From: a virus
Lineage: Duplodnaviria > Heunggongvirae > Uroviricota > Caudoviricetes
Virus record (IMG/VR): IMGVR_UViG_2700989274_000003
DNA length: 13,408 bases
Strand: one strand, 5' to 3'
Part shown: piece by piece, positions 2 through 13,408 of the stretch
How the letters are laid out: the number at the start of each line of letters is the position of its first letter
Numbering within the stretch: position 1 is the stretch's first letter
The notes under the pieces: generated by a model
What the model was told of the DNA's origin: nothing
Seen by the model: only the letters and a program-made list of their open reading frames with translations
Database searches by the model: none
Made by a program: the position numbers and the translations under genes

Positions 2-1282
2 TTAATTTTTCATTGCTTCGTTATGGGGCATGGTTGGGGCAAACTCGCTTAACTGTGTATTTAACAAAGCTACCTGTGCATTATTGTTTTCAGACATCCA
101 TTTTCCGTATACCTGAAATACCATTTGCGCATCTGCATGGCCCATCTGGTTTGCTATAAATGCCGGGTTAGCACCAGCTGTCAGCGACCAGCAGGCATAA
201 GTATGTCTCGACTGATATGATTTTCGATGGCGGAGTCCGGCACGTTTTATCGCTGCGTCCCACATCTGCCTTATTGAGTCAACGGTAAAATGGTCACCAT
301 AATTTTTTACTCTCGCTGACACTTCAGGTTGAAAAACAAAGGTGCATTTATGTTTTTCTGTTCTGCCATACTCTCTGAGGTGAACATCAATGATATGCTC
401 TTTGCTCAGTCTCGTTAATGTCATCTGACTCCGGAGAGCGTCGATTGCTGGCTTAATAAGATGAATGACCCGATTGGTTCCCGCCTGTGTTTTTGGTACC
501 GTGAAACGGTCTTTTGCTAAATTTCTCCTGATCATCATTGTTCCATTTTTCAGATCTATGTCCTCCCATCCAAGTGCACACAGCTCACCAGGGCGAACGC
601 CAGTATAAACAGAAACACACCATAAATTTTTGGCTTGCTGATTTCTGCACGCATCGATAAGACGGATGAATTCCTCCCGCGAAAGAGGATCCGGAATGGT
701 TCTTGATTCCTTTAATGGCGAGATCCCCTTAAACGGGTTATCTGCCAGGTAACCGTTATCAACACCAAACTGGAACACGGCGTTAAGATTTGTCATGTAA
801 TTATTTACAGTTACAGCCGATCTCCCTGGTTGTGTAACAATATAGTTACTTTTGGGGATCTGGTATCCAGTCAGTAGCTCTTTACGAACCTCCAGTAATT
901 TTTCTTTATTAATCGATGAGGCAAGATTTTTTTCACCGATTATGCTCAGGATATTTTTGATGACGGCACGGTATGTGTTGAGTGATGTTTTTGCGACTTC
1001 AGTTTCTTTCAGTGCCAGAAATTTTTCAGCCAGTTCTTTTATGGTTAAATCTTGTCGGGTCTCACCAAATTTTTCCAGATTGCGTGAGGAGGGAAACTGT
1101 TTTGCATAGTCGAAAACACCAGTTTTTATTGCGTAACAAACAGAGGCGCGTAGCTCACCTGCAACGCGCCTGTTTTTTGCTGTGTCAGGAACCCCCAGGT
1201 TTTCCCTGACTCTTACGCCTTTATAAACAAACCAGATACGTAATTTCCCTCCATGGTTTTCCACGCCTGTCGGATATTTCAT
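2..1282 (-). CDS. int: Phage tyrosine integrase (site-specific recombinase)
   Basis: ORF 2..1297 on minus strand with TAA stop at 2-4. The C-terminal region carries tyrosine-recombinase-like motifs (SRHTYACW, MGHADAQMVFQVYGKW). Start is probably ATG 1282 (MKYPTGVE..., weak GAGA SD) rather than 1297, which has no SD. It sits at the prophage edge; the att site would lie left of the window. Confidence 0.88.
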   Translation of the reverse strand: MKYPTGVENHGGKLRIWFVYKGVRVRENLGVPDTAKNRRVAGELRASVCYAIKTGVFDYAKQFPSSRNLEKFGETRQDLTIKELAEKFLALKETEVAKTSLNTYRAVIKNILSIIGEKNLASSINKEKLLEVRKELLTGYQIPKSNYIVTQPGRSAVTVNNYMTNLNAVFQFGVDNGYLADNPFKGISPLKESRTIPDPLSREEFIRLIDACRNQQAKNLWCVSVYTGVRPGELCALGWEDIDLKNGTMMIRRNLAKDRFTVPKTQAGTNRVIHLIKPAIDALRSQMTLTRLSKEHIIDVHLREYGRTEKHKCTFVFQPEVSARVKNYGDHFTVDSIRQMWDAAIKRAGLRHRKSYQSRHTYACWSLTAGANPAFIANQMGHADAQMVFQVYGKWMSENNNAQVALLNTQLSEFAPTMPHNEAMKN

Positions 1283-1316
1283 TTCAATTTCTCTCATTAG
1301 TTAGTGTGGCTTTTAG

Positions 1317-4112: not shown

Positions 4113-4204
4113 TTGTTTTAACCTCATGACAGATTTAAGGATGAACAAATCCCTGCCATTGCTGGCATATAAGAATGAAACCGGATATTTATTACGGAAC
4201 TGTT

Positions 4205-4396
4205 TTAAAGACCTGCCGGGATTTCGATATTATCCTGGTGAATAACTTTATCGACCGGGTAACAGTTACCGGGAATTTTCTGTTCGGTTGCTGCAGTCAT
4301 ACACTCCTGCATTGTCCTGTGAACACTGACTGCAATATCAACTGGCTCTCCGGAAACAAGAAAAACTGTCAGAACAAGCACAAATGCTGAATTCAT
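4205..4396 (-). CDS. Small protein with N-terminal signal-peptide-like hydrophobic segment (hypothetical)
   Basis: ATG 4396 overlaps the stop of the upstream gene as ATGA (translational coupling). Product MNSAFVLVLTVFLVSGEP... is 63 aa with two Cys. The longer ORF 4205..4450 has no better start. Confidence 0.5.
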   Translation of the reverse strand: MNSAFVLVLTVFLVSGEPVDIAVSVHRTMQECMTAATEQKIPGNCYPVDKVIHQDNIEIPAGL

Positions 4397-4581
4397 TGTG
4401 CACATCCTTTTGGCATCAGACGTAAACGAGCCAGCATTGAAACAATGCATATTTTATTTAATAGCTCCCGTTCTTGTTTTCTCTTGTTAATGGCATCTTC
4501 AGTAAATACTGGGTTACTGATAGTGACACCAATTTCAAAACAACCTTCAGACGTATTAACGTTTGGTAATAACGTTTTCAT
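4393..4581 (-). CDS. Hypothetical small protein (62 aa), early-left operon
   Basis: Start ATG 4581 (MKTLLPNV...) is preceded by GAGGA SD at about 7 nt. Stop TGA overlaps the next gene's ATG. The upstream part of ORF 4393..4686 lacks an RBS. Confidence 0.5.
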   Translation of the reverse strand: MKTLLPNVNTSEGCFEIGVTISNPVFTEDAINKRKQERELLNKICIVSMLARLRLMPKGCAQ

Positions 4582-4750
4582 TATCGCGTCCTCAACAATG
4601 AATTTTGTGATGCAGTGCCTGGTGCCTCCAGGTGACGTTAACCAGTTAACAATTAACGCCGGATACAGAGAATCCACCCATAACACTGTTTTTGGTTTTA
4701 ACTGTTCCGCGTGCGCTCAGCCGCATTCACCACATCACAAAATTCACTTT

Positions 4751-4793
4751 AAAAAGGGCGGCAGAGCAGTCACGGAGTAAAACTGATACCGCC
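4751..4793 (-). terminator. Possible intrinsic terminator on minus strand (GC stem GGCGG/CCGCC, long loop, U5 tail)
   Basis: Minus strand reads GGCGG-(26 nt)-GCCGCCC-TTTTT. The loop is unusually long, so this is weak. Confidence 0.2.
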
Positions 4794-5148
4794 AAACGTC
4801 ACCAGAAAATTGATAACAGAGGGCGTTGCAGCGGGGTTGTCACTTAAGCGTATGGTCAACCTGACAACCCGGTGTCCTCAACGGGGAAGAAATAACCCCG
4901 CCATACTTACCGCCGCACCATTTCGCGGGTTGCCACAACCGGAAGCGCACGGTCGACGAAAATTTAACGACAGGCTATCTATGAACCAGCTACCTCGCCG
5001 TGCGCTTTCGCGTTATGGTCTGACTTTTCAGGGAAATATCCTTTCAGTAAACTGTCAGTGCCGGATGCTCACCCGTGTCCGGCGCACGCACTCCACCTCA
5101 CCCGTGGAGAACTCCTTAATTACCAACCTTAGCTTCGTTGGTTAGCTA

Positions 5149-5367
5149 TTAACGCGGGTATGTAATCATTCTGGCAATGCTTAATGCCGCTGCTTTTTCC
5201 AGATTGGTGATATCCTGCTCCAGAGCGGACAGATTTTCAGCCTGCTTAGCCCTGGCTTCATTGGCCCATTTCAGATCCTGCGCTGCATTAATTTTCTGGC
5301 GCATCCACTCATAAAGTTCATCATCGGTATAGTCTGGCGCGATGATGACGGGTTCTCGTTTCTGCAT
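5149..5367 (-). CDS. Hypothetical protein (72 aa, predicted coiled coil)
   Basis: ORF with GAGGAA SD about 5 nt upstream of ATG 5367. Last gene of a tightly packed three-gene leftward operon. Confidence 0.55.
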   Translation of the reverse strand: MQKREPVIIAPDYTDDELYEWMRQKINAAQDLKWANEARAKQAENLSALEQDITNLEKAAALSIARMITYPR

Positions 5368-5396
5368 ACTGATTCCTCGCGGTGCTGTTTCGCTTA

Positions 5397-5525
5397 TCAG
5401 CCGTTAGATTTTGCCGAACTGGAAAGCGCCTGTTTAAATTCGTTGAAGCTGTGAGCTTCTTCGCCTTCGGCAAGGCCTTCGAAGTATTCTTCGTAAGCCT
5501 TTTCCATGATTGTGTCAAAATCCAT
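5397..5525 (-). CDS. Small acidic protein (42 aa; MDFDTIMEKAYEEYFEGLAEGEEAHSFNEFKQALSSSAKSNG), not in supplied ORF track
   Basis: Hand-translated from the minus strand. ATG at 5525-5523 is preceded by AGGTGA SD and lies 1 nt after the upstream gene's TGA (TGAtATG). Stop TGA at 5399-5397. Fills the gap between the 78-aa and 72-aa genes. Confidence 0.45.
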   Translation of the reverse strand: MDFDTIMEKAYEEYFEGLAEGEEAHSFNEFKQALSSSAKSNG

Positions 5526-5526
5526 A

Positions 5527-5763
5527 TCACTCACCTGAGTTTCTTTCCAGCCAGCGACGGGCACCATTTTCGGTTTTAAACGTTTTGCTTTTGGTATACG
5601 TCATTGCGGTGAAGGTGCCGTCCTGGTTTGGAAACACGCCGTACACCAGAGATTCGTTGTTGCCAAGATCGATAGTATCCATGCTGACCTCATTTCCCCT
5701 TAACGCCGGGGTAGCGGAACAAAAACCTGCTGCATAGTTATTAAAGTTGAACCCTGCCGTCAT
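5527..5763 (-). CDS. Hypothetical protein, first gene of leftward early operon (78 aa; alternative start ATG 5682 gives 51 aa)
   Basis: ORF 5527..5763. GAGG SD is 9 nt upstream of ATG 5763; the internal ATG 5682 also has a GAGG SD at 5 nt. No recognisable N-like arginine-rich motif. Confidence 0.5.
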   Translation of the reverse strand: MTAGFNFNNYAAGFCSATPALRGNEVSMDTIDLGNNESLVYGVFPNQDGTFTAMTYTKSKTFKTENGARRWLERNSGE

Positions 5764-5974: not shown

Positions 5975-6613
5975 TTAAATATCTTGTTGAATTTTAAAGC
6001 ATACGCCCAATATGCAAGATAGATCATCCAGCATAATTGAAGGGTAGCGAGGATTCGTGGGGACTAAAAGAATATCCGGCCCTTCTATCTCCAGTTTACG
6101 AATGACAGGTGTTGTGGTCCCTTTGGGTAAGGCAAGGACAATATTTCCTGGTTGTACGGTTCGATCGGGATCAACAAAAACTGTTGAACCATTTGGGATG
6201 GAAACTCCCCCACCAGATGTTGACATACTGTCACTCTCTAGAACAACTGCAAAGGTATTGACCGGGATTTCTCCGACAAGCTGCACACAAGAGGTTATTG
6301 AGGAATTTTTCATATAATCACTCCAGCTTGCTGCCTGCTGAAGTGATAGTAGCGGAACCGTTTTTATCGGCGGTAAAGATAGATCAAGCGAATCACCTGT
6401 ATTTAACTCTCCTCCATTAAGAAGCCAATTTTCGTTTACTTTCAATATTTTTGCCAGTGAACTTATGTAACGCGAGGACGGCGCTCCTCCACCGTTCATC
6501 CATTGACTTACGGAGCCTTTTGATGCGCCAGTGCCATTGACAAGGTCTTTGCCTTTCAGGTTTAGCGCATGCATACGTTGGGTTATGCGTTCAGATATAG
6601 TTTGCTTGCTCAT
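5975..6613 (-). CDS. cI: cI-like prophage repressor (N-terminal HTH, C-terminal S24 LexA-like autopeptidase domain)
   Basis: 212-aa ORF. N-terminus has an HTH-like segment (GASKGSVSQWMNGG). C-terminus has S24 signatures: Ser in VVLESDSMS and Lys in PVIRKL. Divergent from the cro-like gene. No SD upstream; -10 TAAAAT (plus 6620-6625) sits 7 nt from the ATG, suggesting a leaderless PRM-type transcript. Confidence 0.88.
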   Translation of the reverse strand: MSKQTISERITQRMHALNLKGKDLVNGTGASKGSVSQWMNGGGAPSSRYISSLAKILKVNENWLLNGGELNTGDSLDLSLPPIKTVPLLSLQQAASWSDYMKNSSITSCVQLVGEIPVNTFAVVLESDSMSTSGGGVSIPNGSTVFVDPDRTVQPGNIVLALPKGTTTPVIRKLEIEGPDILLVPTNPRYPSIMLDDLSCILGVCFKIQQDI

Positions 6614-6704
6614 GTTTTGATTTTAAAACACAGATGGTTTTGTTTCTTGACTTTCTTTGGTTTTGATTATTAAACTTTTGACGTTCAGTTTTATGGAGCG
6701 ACTC
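6614..6704. promoter_or_regulatory. Immunity-region divergent promoter/operator segment (OR-like) between cI and cro-like genes
   Basis: 91-bp intergenic region. Repeated GTTTTGATT-type motifs at 6614-6622 and 6659-6669, and TTTTGA at 6676-6681. Candidate PR -35 TTGACT at 6647-6652. Candidate PRM -10 TAAAAT on the minus strand at 6620-6625. Confidence 0.45.
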
Positions 6705-6935
6705 ATGAAAAAATCAGAAGTATTAGGCTATTTTGGCGGAGTTGTTAAAACAGCCGCAGCTCTAGGAACGTCAAAAACCACAGTCAGCATGTGGGGGGAA
6801 GAGGTTCCGTGGAAATGGGCGTTGCTAATTCAGGCAGTCACTGCCGGGGCGCTCAAATATGAGTTACACATACCGACGGTTGTCATTCCCGGTTCTGATC
6901 ATAATCCGCCTTCTAACCAAGGGGGGGATTCATGA
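6705..6935 (+). CDS. Cro/YdaS-like HTH regulator
   Basis: ATG 6705 with GGAG SD 6 nt upstream. HTH-like GGVVKTAAALGTSKTTVSMWGE resembles the Cro/YdaS family. Divergent from cI. Stop overlaps the next gene's ATG as ATGA. Confidence 0.78.
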   Translation: MKKSEVLGYFGGVVKTAAALGTSKTTVSMWGEEVPWKWALLIQAVTAGALKYELHIPTVVIPGSDHNPPSNQGGDS

Positions 6936-7357
6936 AAATCAAGCATGAACACATCCGCATGGCGATGAATGCCTGGGCGCATCCGGACGGCGAAAAAGTA
7001 CCGGCTGCGAAAATTACCAAAGCGTATTTCGAGCTGGGAATGACGTTCCCGGAACTGTATGACGACAGCCATCCGGAAGCCCTGGCTCGCAATACCCAGA
7101 AAATTTTCCGCTGGGTAGAGAAAGACACCCCTGATGCAGTTGAAAAAATTCAGGCGTTGTTACCAGCGATCGAAAAGGCAATGCCACCTTTGCTGGTGGC
7201 CAGAATGCGCAGCCACAGTTCAGCTTATTTTCGGGAGCTGGTGGAGACGCGGGAGCGACTGGTGAGAGACGCTGATGATTTTGTCGCAGTGGCAATCGCC
7301 GGTTTCAATCAGATGAACCGTGGTGGCCCGGCAGGAAATGCTGTGGCAGTACATTGA
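6932..7357 (+). CDS. YdaT-like (CII-analogue) regulatory protein
   Basis: 141-aa ORF translationally coupled to the cro-like gene, in the position of cII/ydaT. The N-terminus MKIKHEHI... is recalled from the Rac YdaT family, from memory only. Confidence 0.6.
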   Translation: MKIKHEHIRMAMNAWAHPDGEKVPAAKITKAYFELGMTFPELYDDSHPEALARNTQKIFRWVEKDTPDAVEKIQALLPAIEKAMPPLLVARMRSHSSAYFRELVETRERLVRDADDFVAVAIAGFNQMNRGGPAGNAVAVH

Positions 7358-7428
7358 CTGACAATAGCCATATCGAATCGCTTCCGGCAACTCGTGAGTA
7401 AAAAGATTCGGTATCAGAAGAGGTGAGT

Positions 7429-8499
7429 ATGGCTAACGCCTGGCTCAGATTATGGCATGACATGCCAAATGACCCTAAGTGGCGAACAATTGCCAGGGTG
7501 TCAGGGCAGCCAATTGCAACAGTGATGGCAGTGTATATCCACCTCCTGGTGAGCGCGTCACGAAATGTCACGCGAGGTCACATTGATGTCACGACAGAAG
7601 ATTTGGCAAGTGCGCTCGACGTGACAGAAGAGGTAATTGATTCAATTTTGCAGACGATGCAGGGGCGGGTACTTGATGGTGATTTAATCACTGGATGGGA
7701 AAAACGCCAGGTGCTGAAAGAGGACAACGGCAATATTTCGCAAACCGCAAAATCTCCGGCAGAGCGCAAGAGGGCGCAGCGAGAGAGGGAAAGAAAGCGG
7801 GAACAAAATGGCGATTGTCACGGCGCGTCACGAAATGTCACGCACATGTCACGACGAGTCACGACAGATAAAGATACAGATAAAGATACAGATCAAGAAG
7901 ATCAAAACACTATGGTCCATGGCGTAAAAAACGCCACGAACCAGGCAGGGGATGTTCAGACCGTCAATCCTGGTCAGCCAGCAGGCACGACACCGGAAGC
8001 CGATTCAGCGTATGCGCTGAAAGCCGATTCGGGCGCTGTGCAGCAGGTGATGACCCCAAGGCCGGAGCAATCACACCAACTGCAGCAGCCTGAAGCCGAT
8101 TCCGCCATTCAGCGGGAAGCCGATCGGGTAGTCCCGGAAAACACCGGGCTGTCTGTGGGACGAGTGGATTATCCGGATGTGTTCGAACAGGTCTGGCGGG
8201 AGTACCCGTTGCGTGCCGGAGCAAACCCGAAGAAATCCGCTTTCAGTGCCTGGAAGGCCAGATTACGCGAGGGGGTGCCACCAGAGGCCATGCTGGATGG
8301 CGTGAGGCGTTACGCAAGATACTTGGCGGCTACCGGGAAAACGGGAACGGAATTTGTTCAGCGAGCGACGACGTTTTTTGGACCGGACCGGAATTTTGAG
8401 AACCCCTGGTTGCTCCCGGTAAGCGGCACGAACAACCAGCGTTGTGTGAATCATATTTCTGAACCGGATACCGAAATTCCACCGGGCTTCAGGGGGTAA
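7429..8499 (+). CDS. Phage replication initiation protein (O-like), containing intragenic origin iterons
   Basis: ORF 7423..8499; ATG 7429 (MANAWLRLW...) is preceded by GAGGTG SD. It occupies the O-gene position after cro/cII-like genes and carries iteron arrays plus an AT-rich tract internally, as lambda O carries ori-lambda. The central linker is low-complexity (EADS repeats, KRAQRERERKRE). Confidence 0.7.
   Translation: MANAWLRLWHDMPNDPKWRTIARVSGQPIATVMAVYIHLLVSASRNVTRGHIDVTTEDLASALDVTEEVIDSILQTMQGRVLDGDLITGWEKRQVLKEDNGNISQTAKSPAERKRAQRERERKREQNGDCHGASRNVTHMSRRVTTDKDTDKDTDQEDQNTMVHGVKNATNQAGDVQTVNPGQPAGTTPEADSAYALKADSGAVQQVMTPRPEQSHQLQQPEADSAIQREADRVVPENTGLSVGRVDYPDVFEQVWREYPLRAGANPKKSAFSAWKARLREGVPPEAMLDGVRRYARYLAATGKTGTEFVQRATTFFGPDRNFENPWLLPVSGTNNQRCVNHISEPDTEIPPGFRG
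7553..7593. repeat. Iteron cluster 1: four GTCAC(G/A) repeats phased at 10-11 bp
   Basis: GTCACG at 7557, 7567 and 7588, and GTCACA at 7577. A 21-bp segment GCGCGTCACGAAATGTCACGC (7553-7573) is identical to 7824-7844. Confidence 0.6.
7817..7910. repeat. Iteron cluster 2 (five GTCACG repeats at 10-11 bp phasing) followed by AT-rich tract with 12-bp tandem duplication; putative replication origin
   Basis: GTCACG at 7817, 7827, 7837, 7848 and 7858. This is followed by GATAAAGATACA x2 (7867-7890) and the A/T-rich GATCAAGAAGATCAAAACAC. The iteron-then-AT-rich layout matches lambda-type ori. Confidence 0.6.
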
Positions 8500-8539
8500 G
8501 TGTTGATTTCTGGTCATGAGGTAATTTTCAGGAGGGCTT

Positions 8540-8962
8540 GTGGCAAAAGTTTTTACACAAGAAGAGCGAGAAAAAATTAAAGGGCAGGTTGTTGAACTCG
8601 TACGCCAGAGTGGGCGTGAGACGTTACGGCAACTGGAAGTCAAGACAGGTGCGACAAGATATCTGATGAGCGTTCTCGCAAGAGAGCTGGTTGCCAGCGG
8701 CGATGTATACAACTCCGGCTACGGGTTATTCCCCTCTGAACAGGCGCGTAAGGACTGGCAAAACGCCCGCAAAAAACTCTCGAGGGCAAAGGTGAAGAAA
8801 CCTGCTGTGGTTGATCCGGACCTTATCTGGTCATCACCTGACGGAGAAATACGTCGCTACGACAGTCGCCTAAACATAATCTGTCGCGAGTGCCGGAAGA
8901 GTGAAGCTATGCAGCGTGTACTGGCTTTCTATCAGGGTAATTTTCAGGAGGCGGTACTGTGA
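8540..8962 (+). CDS. Hypothetical protein (140 aa)
   Basis: GTG start 8540 with AGGAGG SD (8530-8535). The 16-bp RBS segment GGTAATTTTCAGGAGG is repeated exactly before the next gene. No family recognised. Confidence 0.6.
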   Translation: MAKVFTQEEREKIKGQVVELVRQSGRETLRQLEVKTGATRYLMSVLARELVASGDVYNSGYGLFPSEQARKDWQNARKKLSRAKVKKPAVVDPDLIWSSPDGEIRRYDSRLNIICRECRKSEAMQRVLAFYQGNFQEAVL

Positions 8963-9376
8963 GTGAAATTAGCTATCAGGCTTCAATTACCGCTGGCATT
9001 CGCATCAAAGGAGAGGAGCATGGAAATAAAACCAGAGGATGAGTTAAGCAATATCGTTTTATTTCCGGTAAAAGAGGATGACCCTCGTAATCAGGTTAAT
9101 TTTCTTTATGAGCCATCGGAAAGACCATATTGTCATCACGCCTCTGTCCGGGTTGACGAAAAAGAGCGTCAGGTCCGCTGTAAAATCTGCGGTGCAGTTG
9201 TGGAGCCATTTGACTGGATGCTCTCTGTGGCGAAAAGAGAAACCAGACTGGCAGATGATGTAAGGCTCTTGCGTCAGGAGGAGCGGGAAAGGCGAAAAAA
9301 TATAGAAAAGCTAATTCAGATTGAGCGTAACGCGAAAGCGCGGATACGCAGGGCGACAAAATCCAGAACTGAATAA
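8963..9376 (+). CDS. Hypothetical protein with CHH...CxxC putative zinc-binding motif and C-terminal basic coiled coil (alternative start ATG 9020)
   Basis: ORF 8963..9376. GTG 8963 follows the repeated AGGAGG segment; ATG 9020 has a strong GGAGAGGAG SD. Motif YCHHASVRVDEKERQVRCKICG, then LLRQEERERRKNIEKLIQIERNAKARIRR. Confidence 0.6.
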   Translation: MKLAIRLQLPLAFASKERSMEIKPEDELSNIVLFPVKEDDPRNQVNFLYEPSERPYCHHASVRVDEKERQVRCKICGAVVEPFDWMLSVAKRETRLADDVRLLRQEERERRKNIEKLIQIERNAKARIRRATKSRTE

Positions 9377-9469
9377 TTAAATTTAGCTCTGTTAAAAATT
9401 TAATCCTTAACCGGAGGGATTTCTGCACCCTCAGAACATCAGGAGGCCGCCCGAAAGGGCGGTAGTTAA

Positions 9470-9652
9470 ATGCGAAAGTTTAAAATAATTATTGAAACGG
9501 GAATAGCCGGTGGAGATTTCGAGGATGAATTCGAAGTGGATGATGATGCGACGCCTGATGAAATACATGACGAAGCAAAAGATATTTTCTTTAACTACTG
9601 CAATTACTCATATCACGAAATAAAAGACGAAGAGGAAGAACAAAATGGCTGA
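9470..9652 (+). CDS. Small highly acidic protein (60 aa)
   Basis: Product MRKFKIIIETGIAGGDFEDEFEVDDDATPDEIHDEAKD...KDEEEEQNG. AGGAGG (9441-9446) is separated from the ATG by a GC hairpin with a GAAA loop (9447-9462). Overlaps the next ORF by 8 nt. Confidence 0.5.
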   Translation: MRKFKIIIETGIAGGDFEDEFEVDDDATPDEIHDEAKDIFFNYCNYSYHEIKDEEEEQNG

Positions 9653-9821
9653 TTTTGGTTCAACTAAATACAACGTCAGTTTTGAAGAATGGCATGAACT
9701 GTTAATGGACTATGCAGAGTTACGTGGTGGCAGTGCTGCTGATGCTGAAGCATGGCGTGATGATTATGAAGCAGGAAAAACTCCGGTCGAAGCATATTGT
9801 GATGAGTGGGGCGATGAATGA
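9645..9821 (+). CDS. Small acidic protein (58 aa; MADFGSTKYNVSFEEWHELLMDYAELRGGSAADAEAWRDDYEAGKTPVEAYCDEWGDE), not in supplied ORF track
   Basis: Hand-translated. ATG 9645 with GAGGA SD about 8 nt upstream. Overlaps the upstream gene (ATGGCTGA) and the downstream gene (ATGA at 9818-9821). Confidence 0.5.
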   Translation: MADFGSTKYNVSFEEWHELLMDYAELRGGSAADAEAWRDDYEAGKTPVEAYCDEWGDE

Positions 9822-10134
9822 GCGAGGTTAATTATCAGGAAGGGCATGAAACGGCGGGGCAAGCAAAAACAGTGGCATGGCGATATCGCTACGTGAAAAA
9901 AAAGGCGTTACGGACTTTCAGGGGAAGTAGTGGTCTGGTGACTGGAAATATGTACCGAAAAAAGAGGATTGTAACGACAGGCCGAACTATGAAATTCAGG
10001 CCTTATTCACTGCCCCGCCAGTCCCGGTTACATCAGAAGAACTGGTTAAAGCTGTGCACTTTTATGAACAACTAAAACGCGAAAATCCACCAGCATCCGG
10101 AAACCTGATTACAGATTCCCAGATAAGGCAATGA
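9818..10134 (+). CDS. Hypothetical gene with frame discontinuity: frame A (9818...) carries two in-frame A AAA AAG heptamers; the protein-like downstream frame (9931..10134) is the -1 frame and has no start codon
   Basis: ATG 9818 is coupled to the upstream gene. Frame A after 9905 is R/K-rich and looks out-of-frame. The -1 frame 9931-10134 (…KEDCNDRPNYEIQALFTAPPVPVTSEELVKAVHFYEQLKRENPP…) looks protein-like but opens directly after a TAG (9928-9930) with no ATG/GTG/TTG. Heptamers at 9898-9904 and 9958-9964. Confidence 0.35.
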
Positions 10135-10230
10135 GCTACCTGGCGCAGAACGGGCTGATAAGTATGGGGAATGTTTTACGATGAATATTTAGACTAAAGA
10201 GTTTGTAACGCTATGTAAGTGATTTTTTCT

Positions 10231-10258
10231 GGTTTAGATATTTATATGTCCGGCCAAA
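10231..10258. repeat. Imperfect direct repeat copy 1 (GGTTTAG..ATATTTA..TGTCCGG..CAAA) upstream of the small membrane-protein gene
   Basis: Roughly 80% identical to 10502-10533 by eye, with indels. The two copies bracket the 59-aa gene. Confidence 0.4.
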
Positions 10259-10304
10259 TTGAGGTGTGTTTAAATGTAATTGCACATTGATTGTAGGAGG
10301 AATA

Positions 10305-10484
10305 ATGAAAAACGCATTGCAGTTTTTGTTTGTTGCGTTCTGGTTGTTCGTATCATGTATGCCCATCATCTTCACAGCAAGGTATATGGAAAAAGTTGAT
10401 GTTTTGATATTAATATTTGGATATATAAATGCCCTTTTTTTAGGGGTGTTCATGGCGGTCATGTGCATTGAATACTGGCGGTAA
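10305..10484 (+). CDS. Small hydrophobic protein, two predicted TM helices (59 aa), in AT-rich island
   Basis: ATG 10305 with AGGAGG SD (10295-10300). Product MKNALQFLFVAFWLFVSCMPIIFTARYMEKVDVLILIFGYINALFLGVFMAVMCIEYWR. Surrounding DNA (about 10140-10560) is markedly AT-rich. ORF track start 10266 has no RBS. Confidence 0.55.
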   Translation: MKNALQFLFVAFWLFVSCMPIIFTARYMEKVDVLILIFGYINALFLGVFMAVMCIEYWR

Positions 10485-10501
10485 ATACAGCGAACGCCAT
10501 T

Positions 10502-10533
10502 GGTTTAGTTGGATATTTACTGTGCCGGACAAA
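10502..10533. repeat. Imperfect direct repeat copy 2, immediately upstream of the hok promoter region
   Basis: GGTTTAGTTGGATATTTACTGTGCCGGACAAA, compared by eye with 10231-10258. Confidence 0.4.
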
Positions 10534-10538
10534 AACGG

Positions 10539-10567
10539 TTTGCGGGGAAATCTTAGTTAAGTAGAAT
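10539..10567 (+). promoter_or_regulatory. Candidate hok mRNA promoter (-10 TAGAAT at 10562-10567, weak -35 about 10539-10545)
   Basis: TAGAAT lies about 7 nt upstream of the 5' fold-back element (10572-10585), where the hok mRNA 5' end is expected. Confidence 0.35.
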
Positions 10568-10629
10568 GACTGCGGGTGCTTGAGGCTATCTGTCTCAGGC
10601 ATGAACACCAAAAGGCAGATAGAGAAAAG

Positions 10630-10694
10630 CCCCAGTTAACATTACGCGTCCTGCAAGACGCTTAACATTAATCTGAGGCCATATCTATGCGACA
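10630..10694 (-). ncRNA. sok: Predicted Sok-like antisense RNA (coordinates approximate)
   Basis: Minus-strand sigma70-like promoter: -35 TTGACC (plus 10724-10729), 16-bp spacer, -10 GCTAAT (plus 10702-10707). The transcript would be antisense to the mok SD (GAGG 10675-10678) and start codon (10687). The 3' end is not defined; no clean terminator was found by eye. Confidence 0.3.
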
Positions 10695-10746
10695 CATAGA
10701 GATTAGCCTCTTACGGACCGAAAGGTCAAGGAGAAGCAGGCTATGA
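10687..10746 (+). CDS. mok: mok-like upstream reading frame (19 codons) translationally coupled to hok
   Basis: ATG 10687 with GAGG SD 8 nt upstream. Stop TGA at 10744-10746 overlaps the hok ATG 10743-10745 (ATGA). Much shorter than R1 mok. Confidence 0.4.
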   Translation: MRHIEISLLRTERSRRSRL

Positions 10747-10898
10747 AGCAGCAAAAGGCGATGTTAATCGCCCTGATCGTCATCTGTTTAACCGTCATAG
10801 TGACGGCACTGGTAACGAGGAAAGACCTCTGCGAGGTACGAATCCGAACCGGCCAGACGGAGGTCGCTGTCTTCACAGCTTACGAACCTGAGGAGTAA
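10743..10898 (+). CDS. hok: Hok/Gef-family type I toxin (51 aa), HokD/RelF-like
   Basis: Product MKQQKAMLIALIVICLTVIVTALVTRKDLCEVRIRTGQTEVAVFTAYEPEE. Single N-terminal TM helix and the conserved TRKxLCE...EVAxFxAYE Hok signature. AGGAG SD 9 nt upstream. Confidence 0.9.
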   Translation: MKQQKAMLIALIVICLTVIVTALVTRKDLCEVRIRTGQTEVAVFTAYEPEE

Positions 10899-10966
10899 GA
10901 GACCTGGCGGGGGAGAAATCCCTCGCCACCTCTGATGTGTCAGGCATCCTCAACGCACCCGCACGT

Positions 10967-10995
10967 AACCCGCTTCGGCGGGTTTTGTTTTTTCC
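10967..10995 (+). terminator. Rho-independent terminator of hok mRNA (stem AACCCGC/GCGGGTT, UUCG loop, T-rich tail)
   Basis: AACCCGC-TTCG-GCGGGTT followed by TTGTTTTTT. It lies directly after the 3' fold-back element (10948-10962). Confidence 0.7.
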
Positions 10996-11065
10996 TGGCA
11001 TTCTGGTTTACAATTCGCACGCCAGCCTGAACAACTGGCACCTGCTGCGCCAGCAGAGACAACCG

Positions 11066-11344
11066 ATGGCGCACGATACCAAATTACACAATTCTAATGA
11101 TTCTGCCGTCTTTGCCAGTAGGTGCGGACGGCGTTTTCACGCATTCAAATCAGACTGGTTCCAGCATCCTCCATGCACTGAAGAGCAGGCGGAATGGATA
11201 ATTCAGTGTTACCGCAGGCGCGGATACGAGGTTAAGAAAGCTCTTAGCCTCGACTACCGTCACTGGATAATCTCAGTCAGACTCCCTTACTCCGAACGCC
11301 CACCGCGTTCATCCCGCACATACCAGCAACGGATCTGGAGGTAA
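11066..11344 (+). CDS. rem: Rem-like small protein (Qin-prophage rem position, between hok and ydfU)
   Basis: ORF 10937..11344; ATG 11066 (MAHDTKLHNS...) is the first start outside the hok terminator. Synteny hok-rem-ydfU-Q matches my recollection of K-12 Qin. The protein-level match is from memory, not searched. Confidence 0.5.
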   Translation: MAHDTKLHNSNDSAVFASRCGRRFHAFKSDWFQHPPCTEEQAEWIIQCYRRRGYEVKKALSLDYRHWIISVRLPYSERPPRSSRTYQQRIWR

Positions 11345-11345
11345 C

Positions 11346-12395
11346 GTGCGGGTATTACTTCGACCTGTTCTGGTACCGGAACTCGGGGTGGTGATCGTTA
11401 AGCCGGGCCGTGAATCCATGCCGGTATTCCACAATACCCGGGTACTGGTGGAGCCGGAACCGAAAAGCATGCGTAATCTGCCGTCCGGGGTCGTTCCTGC
11501 CGTTCGCCAGCCGCTGGTGGAAGACAAAACATTGCTGCCGTTTTTCAGTAACGCACGGGTGATTCGTGCTGCTGGTGGTGCTGGTGCATTGTCTGACTGG
11601 CTGTTGCGCCATATTAAATCCTGCCAGTGGCCACACGGCGATTATCACCACAGTGAAACCGTCATTCACCGTTATGGTACCGGCGCAATGGTGTTGTGCT
11701 GGCACTGCGACAACCAGCTGCGTGACCAGACATCCGAATCACTCGAGCAACTTGCTCATCAAAACCTGTCAGCATGGATGATTGACGTCATCGGTCACGC
11801 AATAAGCGGTACGCAGGAGCGTGAATTATCTCTGGCTGAATTATCCTGGTGGGCGGTCCGAAATCAGGTGGCGGATGCGCTACCTGAAGCGGTATTACGT
11901 CGCTCGCTGGGATTACCAGCGGAAAAAATCCGCTCAATGTACCGCGAAAGCGACATCGTACCGGGAGAGCAGACCGCCACCAGCATATTGAAACAGCGCA
12001 CAAAAAATCTTGCACTGTTGCCTCACGCCCACCAGGAACAACACCCACTACAGGAAAGGACGGTGGTAAGCATCACCGTTGATCCTGAGTCTCCGGAATC
12101 TTTCATGAAGCTACCTAAACGTCGCCGCTGGGTTAAGGAGAAATACACTCGCTGGGTGAAGACACAGCCGTGTGCTTGCTGCGGTATGCCAGCCGACGAT
12201 CCGCATCATCTGATTGGTCACGGGCAGGGCGGAATGGGAACCAAAGCACATGATCTTTTTGTGTTGCCTTTATGCAGAAAGCATCACGACGAACTGCATA
12301 CGGATACCGTGGCATTTGAAGAGAAGTATGGCTCCCAACTGGAGCTGATTTTTCGATTTATCGATCACGCGCTGGCAATTGGTGTGCTGGCCTAA
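11346..12395 (+). CDS. ydfU: YdfU-like DUF968 protein with C-terminal HNH-like CxxC..HH..C..HH motif
   Basis: 349-aa ORF with GTG start 11346 and GGAGG SD 5 nt upstream. Same length and position as Qin ydfU. C-terminus PCACCGMPADDPHHLIGHGQGGMGTKAHDLFVLPLCRKHHDELH resembles HNH endonuclease metal-binding signatures. Confidence 0.75.
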   Translation: MRVLLRPVLVPELGVVIVKPGRESMPVFHNTRVLVEPEPKSMRNLPSGVVPAVRQPLVEDKTLLPFFSNARVIRAAGGAGALSDWLLRHIKSCQWPHGDYHHSETVIHRYGTGAMVLCWHCDNQLRDQTSESLEQLAHQNLSAWMIDVIGHAISGTQERELSLAELSWWAVRNQVADALPEAVLRRSLGLPAEKIRSMYRESDIVPGEQTATSILKQRTKNLALLPHAHQEQHPLQERTVVSITVDPESPESFMKLPKRRRWVKEKYTRWVKTQPCACCGMPADDPHHLIGHGQGGMGTKAHDLFVLPLCRKHHDELHTDTVAFEEKYGSQLELIFRFIDHALAIGVLA

Positions 12396-12459: not shown

Positions 12460-12469
12460 NNNNNNNNNN
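12460..12469. other. Run of 10 N (assembly or scaffold gap of unknown true length)
   Basis: nnnnnnnnnn in the sequence. The flanks differ sharply in GC content and gene content. Confidence 0.99.
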
Positions 12470-12628
12470 ATATGTACAGGCTCGCACCTGGGCTTGCCTG
12501 ACTGACCGCAGGCCGGCGACGACAAGGTGGAAAAGTTCGGCGTGTGGCTCTGGCGGCAACGATCCCGCGAAGGGCGGACGGTGCTTGAGCTGTTGAACGT
12601 AAGCATGCGGGCAAACCATCTTGCGCGA

Positions 12629-12790
12629 CTATGCCGGATGCCACCTATGCGGCAGCAGCTCTGCAATCTCACTAGCTCGCTGCGTCGGCAACCGTCTCAG
12701 CACATCCTTGAGATAGGCATACGGATCGTGCCCATTATTACGGGCCGACTGGATCAAACTCATGATCGCAGCAGCGCGCTTGAGCATGCG
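12629..12790 (-). pseudogene. IS66 transposase (TnpC) C-terminal fragment
   Basis: C-terminus ...RAAAIMSLIQSARNNGHDPYAYLKDVLRRLPTQRASEIAELLPHRWHPA resembles IS66 TnpC C-termini. The upstream part of ORF 12629..13408 is low-complexity and not transposase-like. Confidence 0.5.
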
Positions 12791-12811
12791 AACCCGCGCC
12801 GAGCATTTGAG

Positions 12812-13001
12812 AAGGCAACGGGATGAACGCTGGCTGGATAGCCGTGGTTTTCTGGGTAAGCAGGCGAATCCATTTGTGGACGAGGTTGGCATTGAGGCTG
12901 TAGCCCAAGGCGATGTTTGCGATGGAGGCACCGGGTTCAGAACACTCCTGAATGACCTGGGCCTTGAAAGATTTGCTGTAGGTACGGCGCTGAGGGCGCA
13001 T
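12812..13001 (-). pseudogene. IS66-family TnpA (orf1, HTH) N-terminal fragment
   Basis: MRPQRRTYSKSFKAQVIQECSEPGASIANIALGYSLNANLVHKWIRLLTQK...PAFIPLP, in a different frame from the TnpC fragment. tnpB and most of tnpC are absent. Confidence 0.45.
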
Positions 13002-13184
13002 GGAAAATCCGCTTGATGGGCCATGGCCTTCGGCGGCGGTGTCGGGAAGGTGTGTTGGCCGGACGGATACTGTTGAACTACGTTGTCTGGGGCAACGGAA
13101 GTGTTTCGGCCCGACTCTGGAACGCGATCCGCAGCGACGACTGGGCAATTCCGCACGTTGGCCTGAGCAGCCTCGGGGAAATCG

Positions 13185-13206
13185 TCGTCTGGGCGCGCCC
13201 AGACGA
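13185..13206. repeat. Perfect 22-bp palindrome TCGTCTGGGCGCGCCCAGACGA
   Basis: Seen directly in the sequence. GC-rich, with no T tract after it. Confidence 0.8.
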
Positions 13207-13408
13207 GTTTCCGCCAAGGAACATGCAGACAAGCAAGGGGCTGCGGGCACTCGGCTACAACGTGAGGATCGGTGTTTGATCGAGGCGCCTGTGGCACACG
13301 CAGGCTGAGGAGCCAGGCGCTGTCCATTGCCTGATCAGGCCGCCCCCCTGTGCCTTGCCTGAGCAGTTGACCTGCATCAATGGGGCGGGAGAACGCTGCA
13401 CATTGCAC

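What the first reader, a model, noticed from the sequence alone, without database searches (positions are those of the whole stretch)
10539..10995. Apparently complete hok/mok/sok-type type I toxin locus with intact fold-back elements, in a Qin-like context lacking relBE
The 51-aa ORF (10743-10898) is a clear Hok/Gef-family peptide. A 19-codon upstream frame (10687-10746) ends in ATGA on the hok start, as expected for mok coupling. The predicted mRNA 5' end GCGGGTGCTTGAGG (10572-10585) is nearly perfectly complementary to CCTCAACGCACCCGC (10948-10962) just before a UUCG-loop terminator (10967-10995). That is the 5'-3' fold-back-inhibition layout described for plasmid R1 hok/sok. A minus-strand promoter (-35 TTGACC 10724-10729, -10 GCTAAT 10702-10707) would produce an antisense RNA over the mok SD and start. 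From memory, the K-12 homologue hokD/relF sits downstream of relBE and is regarded as a regulatory relic; here relBE is absent and the regulatory parts look intact, so this copy may be functional.
Basis: partly seen in the sequence, partly recalled or inferred. Interest (0 to 1): 0.55.

Follow-up and report, generated by a model that had tools for sequence, protein, structure and literature searches.

The report
Intact prophage hok/sok toxin–antitoxin cassette

Summary
The 51-aa ORF (10743-10898) is a Hok/Gef peptide (Pfam E 1.2e-23), identical to K-12 HokD. Rfam's sok/hok-leader model matches 10574-10745 (107 bits). The predicted full-length mRNA closes with the proposed 5'-3' helix (z -9.3). 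That fold is 92% paired across 38 diverged loci, against about 40% in slid controls. K-12 hokD shares only 10729-10992 because relE replaces the leader. The window has the whole leader and no relBE, so it is not the K-12 relic. It is also not new. The intact leader occurs in 4,288 of 5,426 complete E. coli genomes, against 1,165 with the relE-hokD junction, and in 102 phage records. It is annotated hokD/hok/mok. It differs in four C-terminal residues from the Stx2-phage Hok peptide that I take to be HokW; hokW-sokW of prophage Sp5 is experimentally validated. Corrections: the conserved 5' end is G10574, not 10572. The 19-codon mok ending in ATGA is a minority geometry, though compatible with R1 mutagenesis. 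The Sok -10 box is ambiguous. Side observation: a hypervariable patch around the mok ATG (10681-10701), opposite the predicted 5' end of Sok.

The parts
10540..10567 (+). Putative hok promoter: -35 TTGCGG (10540-10545), 16-nt spacer, -10 TAGAAT (10562-10567). This places +1 about 7 nt downstream, at G10574.
   Evidence: Read. Both hexamers are conserved in the Stx2-phage locus. Homology with other loci typically begins at 10539-10572. The site is below the strict scan threshold, but that scan also misses validated promoters. Inferred, not shown.
10574..10994 (+). Predicted full-length hok (mok-hok) mRNA, about 421 nt.
   Evidence: The Rfam model starts at 10574 and the terminator T-tract ends at about 10994. 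MFE is -175 to -181 kcal/mol, z -9.3. The structure is 92.2% paired in 38 loci, with 36 compensatory pairs.
10574..10585 (+). tac (translational activator element) at the 5' end. It pairs with fbi in the full-length RNA and can pair with ucb after 3' processing.
   Evidence: 12-bp helix with 10948-10960. Entropy is 0.0 among 63 alleles. tac/ucb complementarity is 98.9% in 38 loci.
10629..10679 (+). ucb (GCCCC, 10629-10633) / SD-mok (GAGGC, 10675-10679) hairpin. It sequesters the mok Shine-Dalgarno in the closed state. Its complement is the Sok terminator hairpin. It carries a 16-nt apical extension relative to the Rfam consensus.
   Evidence: SD partners in the full-length fold. Helix 4 is 95% paired with 5 compensatory pairs. 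The insertion is visible in the Rfam alignment.
10687..10746 (+). mok leader ORF: 19 codons (MRHIEISLLRTERSRRSRL), with the stop TGA overlapping the hok ATG (ATGA).
   Evidence: Offset-56 geometry is found in 15 of 125 hok loci. In R1, mok translation is needed only up to the hok initiation region (PMC9841398).
10681..10701 (.). Hypervariable patch flanking the invariant mok ATG. It lies opposite the predicted 5' (recognition) end of Sok and forms the mok-AUG hairpin (UCUAUG/CAUAGA).
   Evidence: Entropy is 0.7-0.84 bits per column against 0.107 on average and 0.018 in the hok CDS. The hairpin is kept in 36 of 45 alleles with different stem sequences.
10705..10710 (+). dcb (AGCCUC), the partner of SD-mok in the open, 3'-processed state. 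It overlaps the Sok -10 region.
   Evidence: In the forced tac/ucb fold, SD-mok pairs with 10706-10710. Complementarity is 100% in 38 loci. PMC9841398 places the Sok-promoter mutation inside dcb.
10716..10727 (+). GACC-GAAA-GGUC hairpin just upstream of the hok SD. It contains the Sok -35 box on the other strand.
   Evidence: It covaries with UGCC-GAAA-GGCA in the majority allele (helix 7).
10729..10733 (+). hok Shine-Dalgarno (AGGAG). 10729 is also the left end of the homology with K-12 hokD.
10743..10898 (+). hok CDS, 51 aa. The peptide is identical to HokD (WP_000813254.1).
10876..10890 (+). tRNA-Arg-anticodon-like hairpin (CAG-C-UUACGAA-C-CUG) that presents Tyr47 UAC. A10882 is the candidate TadA A-to-I editing site (Tyr47 to Cys).
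   Evidence: TACGAA is invariant in 38 loci. The hairpin is 99% paired, with 2 of 3 pairs compensatory. Editing of hokB, C, D and E is reported in bioRxiv 10.1101/2025.08.07.668861. Editing was not tested here.
10906..10927 (+). 3'-UTR stem-loop (GGCGGGGGAG-AAAU-CCCUCGCC). It would be the terminal hairpin of the processed mRNA.
   Evidence: helix 17: 88% paired, 4 compensatory pairs. By analogy with the stabilising 3' hairpin of R1 Tr-hok (PMC9841398).
10948..10962 (+). fbi (fold-back inhibitory element), CCUCAACGCACCC(GC).
   Evidence: Helix 1 is 92.8% paired in 38 loci, with a G-C to A-U compensatory change in Kluyvera.
10967..10994 (+). Intrinsic terminator: 7-bp stem, UUCG loop and U-tract.
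10700..10729 (-). Putative Sok promoter: -35 TTGACC (10729-10724). The -10 is either TAATCT (10705-10700, 18-nt spacer, homologous to R1-type TATCCT and Stx2-phage TAACCT) or GCTAAT (10707-10702, 16-nt spacer).
   Evidence: Positional homology. The strict scan is negative, but it is equally negative on validated controls. Inferred.
10622..10693 (-). Predicted Sok antisense RNA, about 70 nt: a single-stranded 5' end over the mok ATG and SD, then a long terminator hairpin followed by UUUUCUC.
   Evidence: Fold of 10696-10615(-): -33 kcal/mol, z -5.3. The ends are inferred from the promoter and the U-tract. The transcript was not observed here.

Best explanation
This is an intact hok/mok/sok type I toxin-antitoxin cassette of the hokD/hokW allele group. 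It is a self-contained module of about 455 bp (promoter to terminator, 10540-10994) in the nin region of a Qin-like lambdoid prophage.

Proposed mechanism. The architecture is shown; the mechanistic steps are inferred from R1 and hokW.
1. A weak promoter (TTGCGG-16-TAGAAT) produces a stable mRNA of about 421 nt starting at G10574.
2. The nascent and full-length RNAs are translationally silent. The 5' tac (10574-10585) pairs with the 3' fbi (10948-10960). The mok SD (10675-10679) is sequestered by ucb (10629-10633). The hok SD/AUG region pairs with the end of the hok CDS.
3. Slow 3' trimming removes the terminator and fbi. tac can then pair with ucb and the mok SD moves to dcb (10705-10710), which exposes the mok start region.
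4. A constitutive, unstable antisense Sok RNA of about 70 nt (minus strand, about 10693-10622) binds this processed form over the mok start. That blocks mok translation and triggers duplex cleavage.
5. When Sok is depleted, ribosomes translate the 19-codon mok, terminate at the UGA within AUGA and start hok. Sok could be lost through loss of the element, transcription arrest or prophage induction.
6. The 51-aa Hok inserts into the inner membrane and depolarises or lyses the cell. A TadA-type A-to-I edit at A10882 (Tyr47 to Cys) may increase toxicity.

By analogy with hokW-sokW, the most likely biological role is to assist host lysis and phage release on induction, and/or to retain the prophage.
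For: Identity of the parts:
- Pfam HOK_GEF, E 1.2e-23.
- Rfam sok/hok-leader model, 106.7 bits.
- The peptide is identical to HokD. HokD was used as a toxic control in bioRxiv 10.1101/2025.08.07.668861.

Closed state:
- The MFE fold contains tac/fbi, z -9.3.
- The architecture is the same as in an R1-type control, including ucb/SD-mok pairing.
- The structure is 92.2% paired across 38 diverged loci against 37-43% when slid, with 36 compensatory pairs against 10-18.

Open state:
- Forcing tac/ucb costs +4.2 kcal/mol (R1-type control +1.6), and SD-mok then pairs with dcb.
- These pairs are 99-100% complementary in all 38 loci.

mok:
- R1 mutagenesis shows that translation is needed only up to the hok start. 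R1 also has 19 mok codons upstream of hok (PMC9841398).
- The same offset-56 geometry arose independently in hokC-like loci L014 and L016.
- The window's exact leader allele occurs at >=99% identity in 1,027 complete-genome records.

Sok:
- A terminator-type hairpin plus U-tract on the minus strand, z -5.3.
- The promoter hexamers are positionally homologous to the R1-type and Stx2-phage loci.

Function:
- hokW-sokW of prophage Sp5 is toxic, is neutralised by sokW expressed from its own promoter, and doubles phage release after mitomycin C (PMC8621323).
- The Stx2-converting phage I locus differs from the window's peptide in four of the last seven residues and has a collinear leader. I take it to carry the same hokW as Sp5; that equivalence was not checked.

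Not the K-12 relic.
Against: - No transcript, processing or toxicity data exist for this allele.
- Neither promoter passes a strict sigma-70 consensus scan. The same scan fails on validated controls, though.
- The unconstrained MFE of the 3'-truncated RNA puts tac in a local 5' hairpin rather than on ucb. The open state is 4.2 kcal/mol above the MFE.
- The Sok promoter spacer is 18 nt for the homologous -10, against 17 in the R1-type and Stx2-phage loci.
- The 19-codon mok is a minority geometry and has not been tested experimentally.
Confidence: 0.85

Rival explanations
1. The locus looks intact but is functionally silent. All elements are retained, but as reported for several chromosomal hok loci it cannot be activated to kill. 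It persists by hitch-hiking in the prophage or because of RNA-level constraints.
For: [quoted passage not shown] The promoters are non-consensus. The open conformation is not the predicted MFE.
Against: - The hok CDS is almost invariant (entropy 0.018) while neighbouring leader positions vary freely.
- tac, ucb, dcb and fbi are conserved out to Kluyvera, Erwinia and R1.
- The closely related hokW-sokW is active in its native prophage (PMC8621323).
- A single chromosomal copy of R1 hok without Sok is lethal (PMC9841398).
Confidence: 0.12
2. This is an attenuated allele. Relative to the majority in-frame mok (offset 57), the window's leader is one nucleotide shorter (offset 56). That truncates mok to 19 codons and weakens or uncouples hok translation, so this allele lineage makes little Hok.
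For: 73 of 125 loci have a mok of about 70 codons in frame with hok, against 15 with the short form. The short form in hokD-type loci is essentially one leader allele: 13 loci share an identical 81-nt segment.
Against: [quoted passage not shown]
- An AUGA stop-start overlap is a classical coupling arrangement (general knowledge).
- The same geometry arose independently in E. ruysiae and E. whittamii hokC-like loci.
- The allele is common, with 1,027 records at >=99% identity.
Confidence: 0.1
3. The module is expressed mainly as a passenger of phage early-right (pR/nin) read-through transcription rather than from its own promoter. Sok is lost on induction because sense read-through interferes with its convergent promoter.
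For: hok is co-oriented with the replication genes (7423-8499), DUF968 (11346-12395) and the Q-like gene that begins at about 12414. sokW disappears and HokW appears after mitomycin C in a RecA-dependent way (PMC8621323).
Against: The homology block shared between unrelated contexts starts at the putative hok promoter and ends at the terminator. It also occurs in plasmids of about 95 kb, which argues for an autonomous cassette with its own promoter. This reading complements the main explanation rather than excluding it.
Confidence: 0.3

Closest known systems
hokW-sokW of Stx2 prophage Sp5 / 933W-type phages (E. coli O157:H7 Sakai; PMC8621323)
   Same: Compared through the Stx2-converting phage I locus (L139), which I take to carry the same hokW as Sp5; that equivalence was not checked.
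- 51-aa peptide identical except for four of the last seven residues (VDYESEK vs TAYEPEE).
- Collinear leader, hok promoter hexamers, tac, ucb hairpin with the same 16-nt extension, dcb, 3'-UTR hairpin and fbi; about 92% nucleotide identity.
- Lambdoid prophage context.
   Different: - HokW-type loci have the in-frame 70-codon mok (offset 57); the window has the 19-codon ATGA form.
- The patch around the mok ATG has a different sequence.
- The GAAA hairpin and Sok -35 differ: UGCC/GGCA with TTGCCT, against GACC/GGUC with TTGACC.
- The sequence after fbi is unrelated, and the strict scan found no terminator there in the Stx2 phage.
K-12 hokD (relF) in the relBEF operon of cryptic prophage Qin
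   Same: Identical Hok peptide. 98.5% nucleotide identity from the hok SD to the terminator (10729-10992), including fbi. Same prophage family: the window is 99.3% identical to Qin over dicB/DicF/ydfABC.
   Different: K-12 has relB-relE abutting the hok SD and lacks the hok promoter, tac, ucb, mok, dcb and sok. K-12 also has rem downstream, which the window lacks.
hok/sok (parB) of plasmid R1, the archetype of the family; compared here through an R1-type IncFII locus (L138)
   Same: Same order and pairing logic for tac/fbi, the ucb/SD-mok hairpin, 19 mok codons before hok, dcb overlapping the Sok promoter, and the hok SD. The predicted closed architecture is the same. The Rfam model built on this family matches.
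   Different: - The paper reports 44% peptide identity between HokW and R1 Hok (PMC8621323).
- tac is GGGUGC rather than GGCGC, with a matching change in fbi.
- The first 5' hairpin is shorter and the ucb hairpin carries a 16-nt extension.
- R1 mok is 70 codons and overlaps hok.
- R1 is plasmid-borne with a post-segregational killing role.
hok/mok annotated in Escherichia phage Rac (MN652886) and 'MokW' in mEp460-type phages
   Same: About 95% identical cassette in the nin region of lambdoid phages, already annotated as mok plus hok.
   Different: Rac has the R1-like overlapping mok frame (offset 58, 68 codons) and is followed by rem.

Membership tests
[quoted passage not shown] | Small hydrophobic Hok/Gef-family toxin peptide | tested here: met
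   PF01848: E 1.2e-23, 82.9 bits against a cut-off of 22, covering the full 42-position profile.
[quoted passage not shown] | Structured hok mRNA leader recognised by the curated covariance model (Rfam RF01794) | tested here: met
   106.7 bits against a gathering score of 59, model positions 1-157 of 157, at 10574-10745 on the + strand.
[quoted passage not shown] | Long-range 5'-3' tac/fbi helix that closes the full-length mRNA | tested here: met
   A 12-14 bp helix in the MFE fold. It is 92.8% paired in 38 loci with one compensatory pair.
[quoted passage not shown] | [quoted passage not shown] | tested here: met
   G10675, G10677, G10678 and C10679 pair with C10633, C10631, C10630 and G10629 respectively in the full-length fold, as in the R1-type control. 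Helix 4 is 95% paired with 5 compensatory pairs.
[quoted passage not shown] | Alternative open form after 3' processing: tac/ucb and SD-mok/dcb pairings | tested here: inconclusive
   Complementarity is present and 99-100% conserved. The forced open form is +4.2 kcal/mol above the MFE, against +1.6 for the R1-type control. The unconstrained MFE prefers a local 5' hairpin. Processing itself cannot be tested here.
[quoted passage not shown] | Leader ORF mok, with its own SD, translated into the hok initiation region (translational coupling) | tested here: met
   GAGG lies 8 nt upstream of the ATG at 10687. There are 19 codons ending in TGA inside ATGA. The geometry differs from R1 (70 codons) but reaches the hok start, which is what R1 genetics requires (PMC9841398). 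Coupling was not measured.
[quoted passage not shown] | Cis-encoded antisense Sok RNA with its own promoter and terminator, complementary to the mok initiation region | tested here: inconclusive
   The terminator hairpin plus U-tract is predicted (z -5.3). The promoter hexamers are positionally homologous to the R1-type and Stx2-phage loci. No strict sigma-70 match was found, but the scan also misses validated Sok promoters. The transcript was not observable here.
[quoted passage not shown] | Toxicity of the peptide and neutralisation by the antisense RNA | not testable with these tools
   Published for the identical HokD peptide (bioRxiv 10.1101/2025.08.07.668861) and for hokW-sokW (PMC8621323), not for this leader allele.
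K-12 hokD/relF relic (relBEF operon) | relE directly upstream of the hok SD, with the leader (promoter, tac, ucb, mok, sok) absent | tested here: not met
   K-12 homology starts only at 10729. tblastn finds no RelB or RelE in the window, while L006, L087 and L091 hit at 100%.

The most novel reading that the evidence does not exclude
The 21-nt patch around the invariant mok ATG (10681-10701) lies opposite the predicted recognition end of Sok. It may be under diversifying selection, so that each co-resident prophage or plasmid copy of hok has a private, non-cross-reacting Sok. Indels in the patch would then incidentally switch mok between three frames: in frame with hok, R1-like overlapping, or a 19-codon stop-start as in the window. 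That would make the prophage hokD/hokW group a natural set of orthogonal antisense pairs. It would also show that only the act of translating mok is selected, not its peptide or its frame.
Probability: 0.4. Interest if true: 0.35.

Novelty: already known. Interest (0 to 1): 0.12.

Why it matters
It matters little as a discovery. The locus is a textbook type I toxin-antitoxin module. It is annotated in RefSeq, matched by Rfam and Pfam, present in most E. coli genomes, and characterised experimentally in a near-identical prophage allele.

Its practical value is for annotation. The 'hokD' of most strains is the complete hok/mok/sok cassette, not the relBEF relic of K-12, and PGAP records annotate only the toxin CDS, not mok or Sok.

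The side observations could support a small comparative study of how multiple hok/sok copies avoid cross-talk. These are the three interchangeable mok frames and the hypervariable Sok-recognition patch with a conserved hairpin. The 2026 survey of Hok diversity explicitly left mok and Sok elements unanalysed.

Tried and rejected
1. Strict sigma-70 scan for the hok and Sok promoters. It found none. I rejected this as evidence because the same scan misses the validated Sok promoter in an R1-type locus, and finds no promoter at all in the Stx2-phage locus.
2. Unconstrained folding of the 3'-truncated mRNA to look for tac/ucb. The MFE gives the local 5' hairpin instead. I replaced it with constrained folds, using the R1-type locus as a control.
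3. I first guessed that AGCCUCUUAC was ucb. Reading PMC9841398 and the constrained fold showed it is dcb, and that GCCCC at 10629-10633 is ucb.
4. Distant blastn of the locus against plasmids did not reach R1 hok/sok itself. It found only hokD-type copies, mostly on non-mobilizable plasmids of about 95 kb. I retrieved the R1-type locus by tblastn with the R1 Hok peptide recalled from memory, which matched at 100%.
5. I considered that the 19-codon mok is an inactivating frameshift. I rejected this as the main reading because of the R1 mutagenesis, its independent recurrence and the allele's frequency.
6. I considered testing whether co-resident copies always differ in the variable patch. Only two multi-copy genomes were examined, which is too few for statistics, so this is left as a next step.
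7. The large protein-homology, structure-prediction and fold-search tools were not used. The peptide is identical to a named RefSeq protein and they would add nothing.
Full report
**What is there**

The window is a Qin-like lambdoid prophage. It contains:
- an integrase (2-1297, minus strand) and an exonuclease-like gene (1641-4148, minus strand);
- a block 99.3% identical to K-12 Qin across dicB/ydfABC, including DicF RNA (Rfam, 4756-4807, minus strand);
- a LexA-family repressor, a YdaT-like gene, a replisome organiser, a DUF977 gene, the hok locus and a DUF968 gene.

The finding lies in the nin-like region, co-oriented with the rightward genes.

**Check of the observation**

All strings and ORFs are at the stated coordinates.
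- The 51-aa ORF at 10743-10898 matches Pfam HOK_GEF (E 1.2e-23). It is identical to HokD (WP_000813254.1).
- Rfam's 'sok' model actually models the sense-strand hok leader and ends on the hok AUG. It matches 10574-10745 over its full length with 106.7 bits, against a gathering score of 59.
- The predicted transcript 10572-10995 folds to -181 kcal/mol (z -9.28), and the MFE structure closes with the proposed 5'-3' helix.
- The terminator at 10967-10984 plus its T-tract is the only terminator-like site found in 10400-11100.

**Is it the K-12 relic?**

No. blastn of the window against K-12 Qin aligns only 10729-10992 (98.5%) to hokD. In K-12, relE ends directly upstream of the hok Shine-Dalgarno. 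tblastn with K-12 RelB and RelE finds nothing in the window, while it finds 100% matches in the K-12-type loci L006, L087 and L091. The window therefore has the 155-nt leader (10574-10728) that K-12 lacks.

**Comparison with the archetype**

I retrieved an R1-type hok/sok from an IncFII plasmid. I took the definitions of the regulatory elements from PMC9841398:
- tac/fbi closes the full-length mRNA;
- ucb sequesters the mok SD;
- after 3' processing, tac pairs with ucb and the mok SD pairs with dcb;
- a metastable 5' hairpin forms in the nascent RNA.

The window has each element in the same order (coordinates are in the parts list). The full-length folds of the window and the R1-type control have the same architecture:
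- a tac/fbi helix of 12 bp in the window against 9 bp in the control;
- a 5' helix;
- the mok SD paired to the GCCCC box.

When the published tac/ucb pairs are forced in the 3'-truncated RNA:
- the cost is +4.2 kcal/mol in the window and +1.6 in the control;
- the window's mok SD then pairs with GCCUC of the AGCCUCUUAC box (dcb), as the model requires.

The unconstrained MFE of the truncated RNA instead shows tac in a local 5' hairpin. That corresponds to the published metastable structure. The switch is therefore plausible but is not proven by thermodynamics.

**Comparative support**

I fetched 133 related loci from genome and viral collections. Of the 80 viral contigs that encode this exact peptide, all but a few carry the full leader. 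Among all fetched loci, the K-12-type break at 10729 occurs only in L001, L006, L043, L087, L091 and L132. The shared homology block usually runs from about 10539-10572 to about 10986-11000, that is, from promoter to terminator. The locus therefore behaves as a discrete cassette.

On an alignment of 38 sequences below 97.5% pairwise identity (including Kluyvera, Erwinia, hokC-like, phage Rac and R1-type loci), the window's MFE structure gave the following:

| Measure | Observed | Control |
|---|---|---|
| Cells paired | 92.2% | 37-43% (partners slid by 1-3 columns) |
| Pairs with changes on both sides | 36 | 10-18 (slid partners) |
| Shuffles reaching the observed paired fraction or covariation score | 0 of 500 | n/a |

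- The tac/fbi helix is 92.8% paired, with one compensatory G-C to A-U change.
- Its two outermost pairs (10572, 10573) are not conserved. The conserved 5' end is therefore G10574, which is 7 nt downstream of a TAGAAT -10 box.
- The open-state pairs are 99-100% complementary in all 38 loci, but they are invariant and so carry no covariation signal.

**mok**

The 19-codon frame ending in ATGA is real, but it is not the usual arrangement. Among 125 hok loci:
- 73 have the mok ATG 57 nt upstream of hok, giving an in-frame Mok of about 70 aa (an N-terminally extended Hok, which from memory is also the K-12 mokC arrangement);
- smaller groups share that offset with 64-72 codons;
- a few have offset 58, the R1- and Rac-like overlapping frame of about 68 codons;
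- 15 have offset 56, the window's form.

Thirteen of those 15 share the window's leader allele. The other two (L014 E. ruysiae, L016 E. whittamii) are hokC-like and arose independently.

R1 genetics shows that mok must be translated only up to the hok initiation region, and that stop codons beyond the hok start are harmless. R1 also has 19 mok codons before hok (PMC9841398). The short mok is therefore compatible with coupling, and the allele is common, with 1,027 complete-genome records at >=99% identity over 10574-10760.

**Sok**

- On the minus strand, the complement of the ucb/SD hairpin forms a long hairpin followed by UUUUCUC (z -5.3).
- Upstream lies TTGACC (10729-10724).
- The -10 box positionally homologous to R1-type TATCCT and Stx2-phage TAACCT is TAATCT (10705-10700, 18-nt spacer).
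- The strict sigma-70 scan finds neither. It also fails to find the Sok promoter in the R1-type locus and finds no promoter in the Stx2-phage locus, so it decides nothing.

**How common and how well known**

- The 511-nt query around the locus is covered at >=80% in 3,818 of 5,426 complete E. coli genomes. There is a median of two copies per genome that has any, and up to ten.
- The leader plus hok start is present in 4,288 genomes. The K-12 relE-hokD junction is present in 1,165.
- It occurs in 102 phage records, annotated 'hok', 'mok', 'MokW', 'HokD toxin' or 'gef phage maintenance protein', and in 605 plasmid records.
- Hok enrichment in prophages, and the toxicity of HokD as a positive control in their assay, are reported in bioRxiv 10.1101/2025.08.07.668861.
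- PMC1635323, citing Pedersen & Gerdes 1999, states that K-12 hok loci are inactive while those of ECOR strains are active.
- hokW-sokW of the Stx2 prophage Sp5 has been characterised experimentally (PMC8621323): it is toxic, sokW from its own promoter neutralises it, sokW is lost and HokW accumulates after mitomycin C in a RecA-dependent manner, and it gives a two-fold gain in phage release.
- The Hok peptide of the Stx2-converting phage I locus differs from the window's only in four of its last seven residues, and the leaders are collinear. I take this locus to be the same hokW as in Sp5, but I did not check that equivalence.

**Verdict**

The object is a known, widespread and annotated element, and the intact form is the rule rather than the exception. 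I rate the interest at 0.12 and the novelty as already known.

**Side observations**

1. Hypervariable patch.
   - Among 63 alleles at least 93% identical to the window's, per-column entropy averages 0.107 bits. It is 0.018 in the hok CDS and 0.0 in tac and the mok ATG.
   - It is 0.7-0.84 bits in 10681-10701, on both flanks of the mok ATG and opposite the predicted 5' end of Sok.
   - A hairpin that holds the AUG in its stem is kept in 36 of 45 unique alleles, with different stem sequences (mean z -1.6).
   - Co-resident copies in the two multi-copy genomes examined differ in this patch.
   - This suggests selection for private Sok-hok recognition. It also explains the frame-switching of mok through indels.
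2. TadA-like hairpin. UACGAA at Tyr47 (10881-10886) is invariant in all 38 loci. It can sit in a 7-nt loop closed by a 3-bp stem with compensatory changes. This mimics the tRNA-Arg anticodon arm (my inference), and TadA editing of hok mRNAs is the reported context (bioRxiv 10.1101/2025.08.07.668861).
3. relBE-hok fusions are not confined to E. coli. A Kluyvera contig (L027) has RelE 96.8% identical to K-12's, upstream of a diverged hok.

Noticed in passing
window 10681-10701: A sharply localised hypervariable patch flanks the invariant mok ATG. Entropy is 0.7-0.84 bits per column, against 0.018 in the hok CDS, among alleles at least 93% identical. The patch lies opposite the predicted Sok 5' end. 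A hairpin around the AUG is kept in 36 of 45 alleles with different stems. Co-resident copies in E. coli ECMA0423 (L004, L005, L012) and S. flexneri SFBU1023 (L007, L009, L013) all differ here.
   Followed up: partly
window 10687-10746; loci L003-L139: mok occurs in three interchangeable frames among close relatives: offset 57 in frame with hok (about 70 aa), offset 58 R1-like overlapping (about 68 aa), and offset 56 with 19 codons and an ATGA stop-start. The Mok peptide and even its frame are therefore not conserved. PGAP annotates none of them.
   Followed up: yes
window 10876-10890 (A10882): An invariant UACGAA at Tyr47 can sit in a 7-nt loop closed by CAG/CUG, with compensatory changes in relatives. 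This is a tRNA-Arg anticodon-arm mimic and a candidate TadA A-to-I site (Tyr to Cys). It is mutually exclusive with helices of the closed mRNA fold.
   Followed up: partly
L027 (Kluyvera sp. CHPC 1.2972), L006/L087/L091, L043, L132: The relBE-hok (relBEF) fusion also occurs in a Kluyvera contig, with RelE 96.8% identical to K-12's and a diverged Hok (MKQQSWRFITLI...). L043 has a degraded relE. L132 breaks at the same point (10729) but has an unrelated upstream sequence.
   Followed up: partly
window 4756-4807 (-): DicF small RNA (Rfam RF00039, 76.7 bits) lies within a block 99.3% identical to K-12 Qin (3346-5720). The immunity and replication region (about 5975-10500) is unrelated to Qin's dicA/dicC.
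   Followed up: no
window 12461-13408: A run of 10 N (scaffold gap) at 12461-12470 interrupts what looks like the start of a Q-antiterminator-like ORF (ATG at about 12414, MRDIQMVLERWGAW...). The GC-rich sequence beyond it (58-63% GC) carries IS66-family fragments (DDE_Tnp_IS66_C, HTH_Tnp_1). The right end of the window is probably a different contig.
   Followed up: partly
window 10266-10484 (+): An unannotated 72-aa, very hydrophobic ORF lies in an AT-rich stretch (35-38% GC) just upstream of the hok cassette. It has no Pfam match and is outside the homology block shared by other hok loci.
   Followed up: no
window 10993-11048 vs K-12 Qin: The window lacks rem, which lies between hokD and ydfU in K-12 and follows hok in phages Rac and mEp460. 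Only 56 bp separate the hok terminator from the sequence homologous to the region upstream of ydfU.
   Followed up: no
plasmid hits H33-H59: hokD-type cassettes at about 90% identity sit on many non-mobilizable plasmids of about 93-120 kb from Escherichia, Salmonella and Klebsiella. These may be P1-like phage-plasmids; a Punavirus record also appears among the phage hits.
   Followed up: no
Rfam RF01794 match, window 10574-10745 (+): The Rfam family named 'sok antitoxin' matches the sense (hok mRNA leader) strand and ends on the hok AUG. Automated annotation from it would therefore label the wrong strand as the antitoxin.
   Followed up: no
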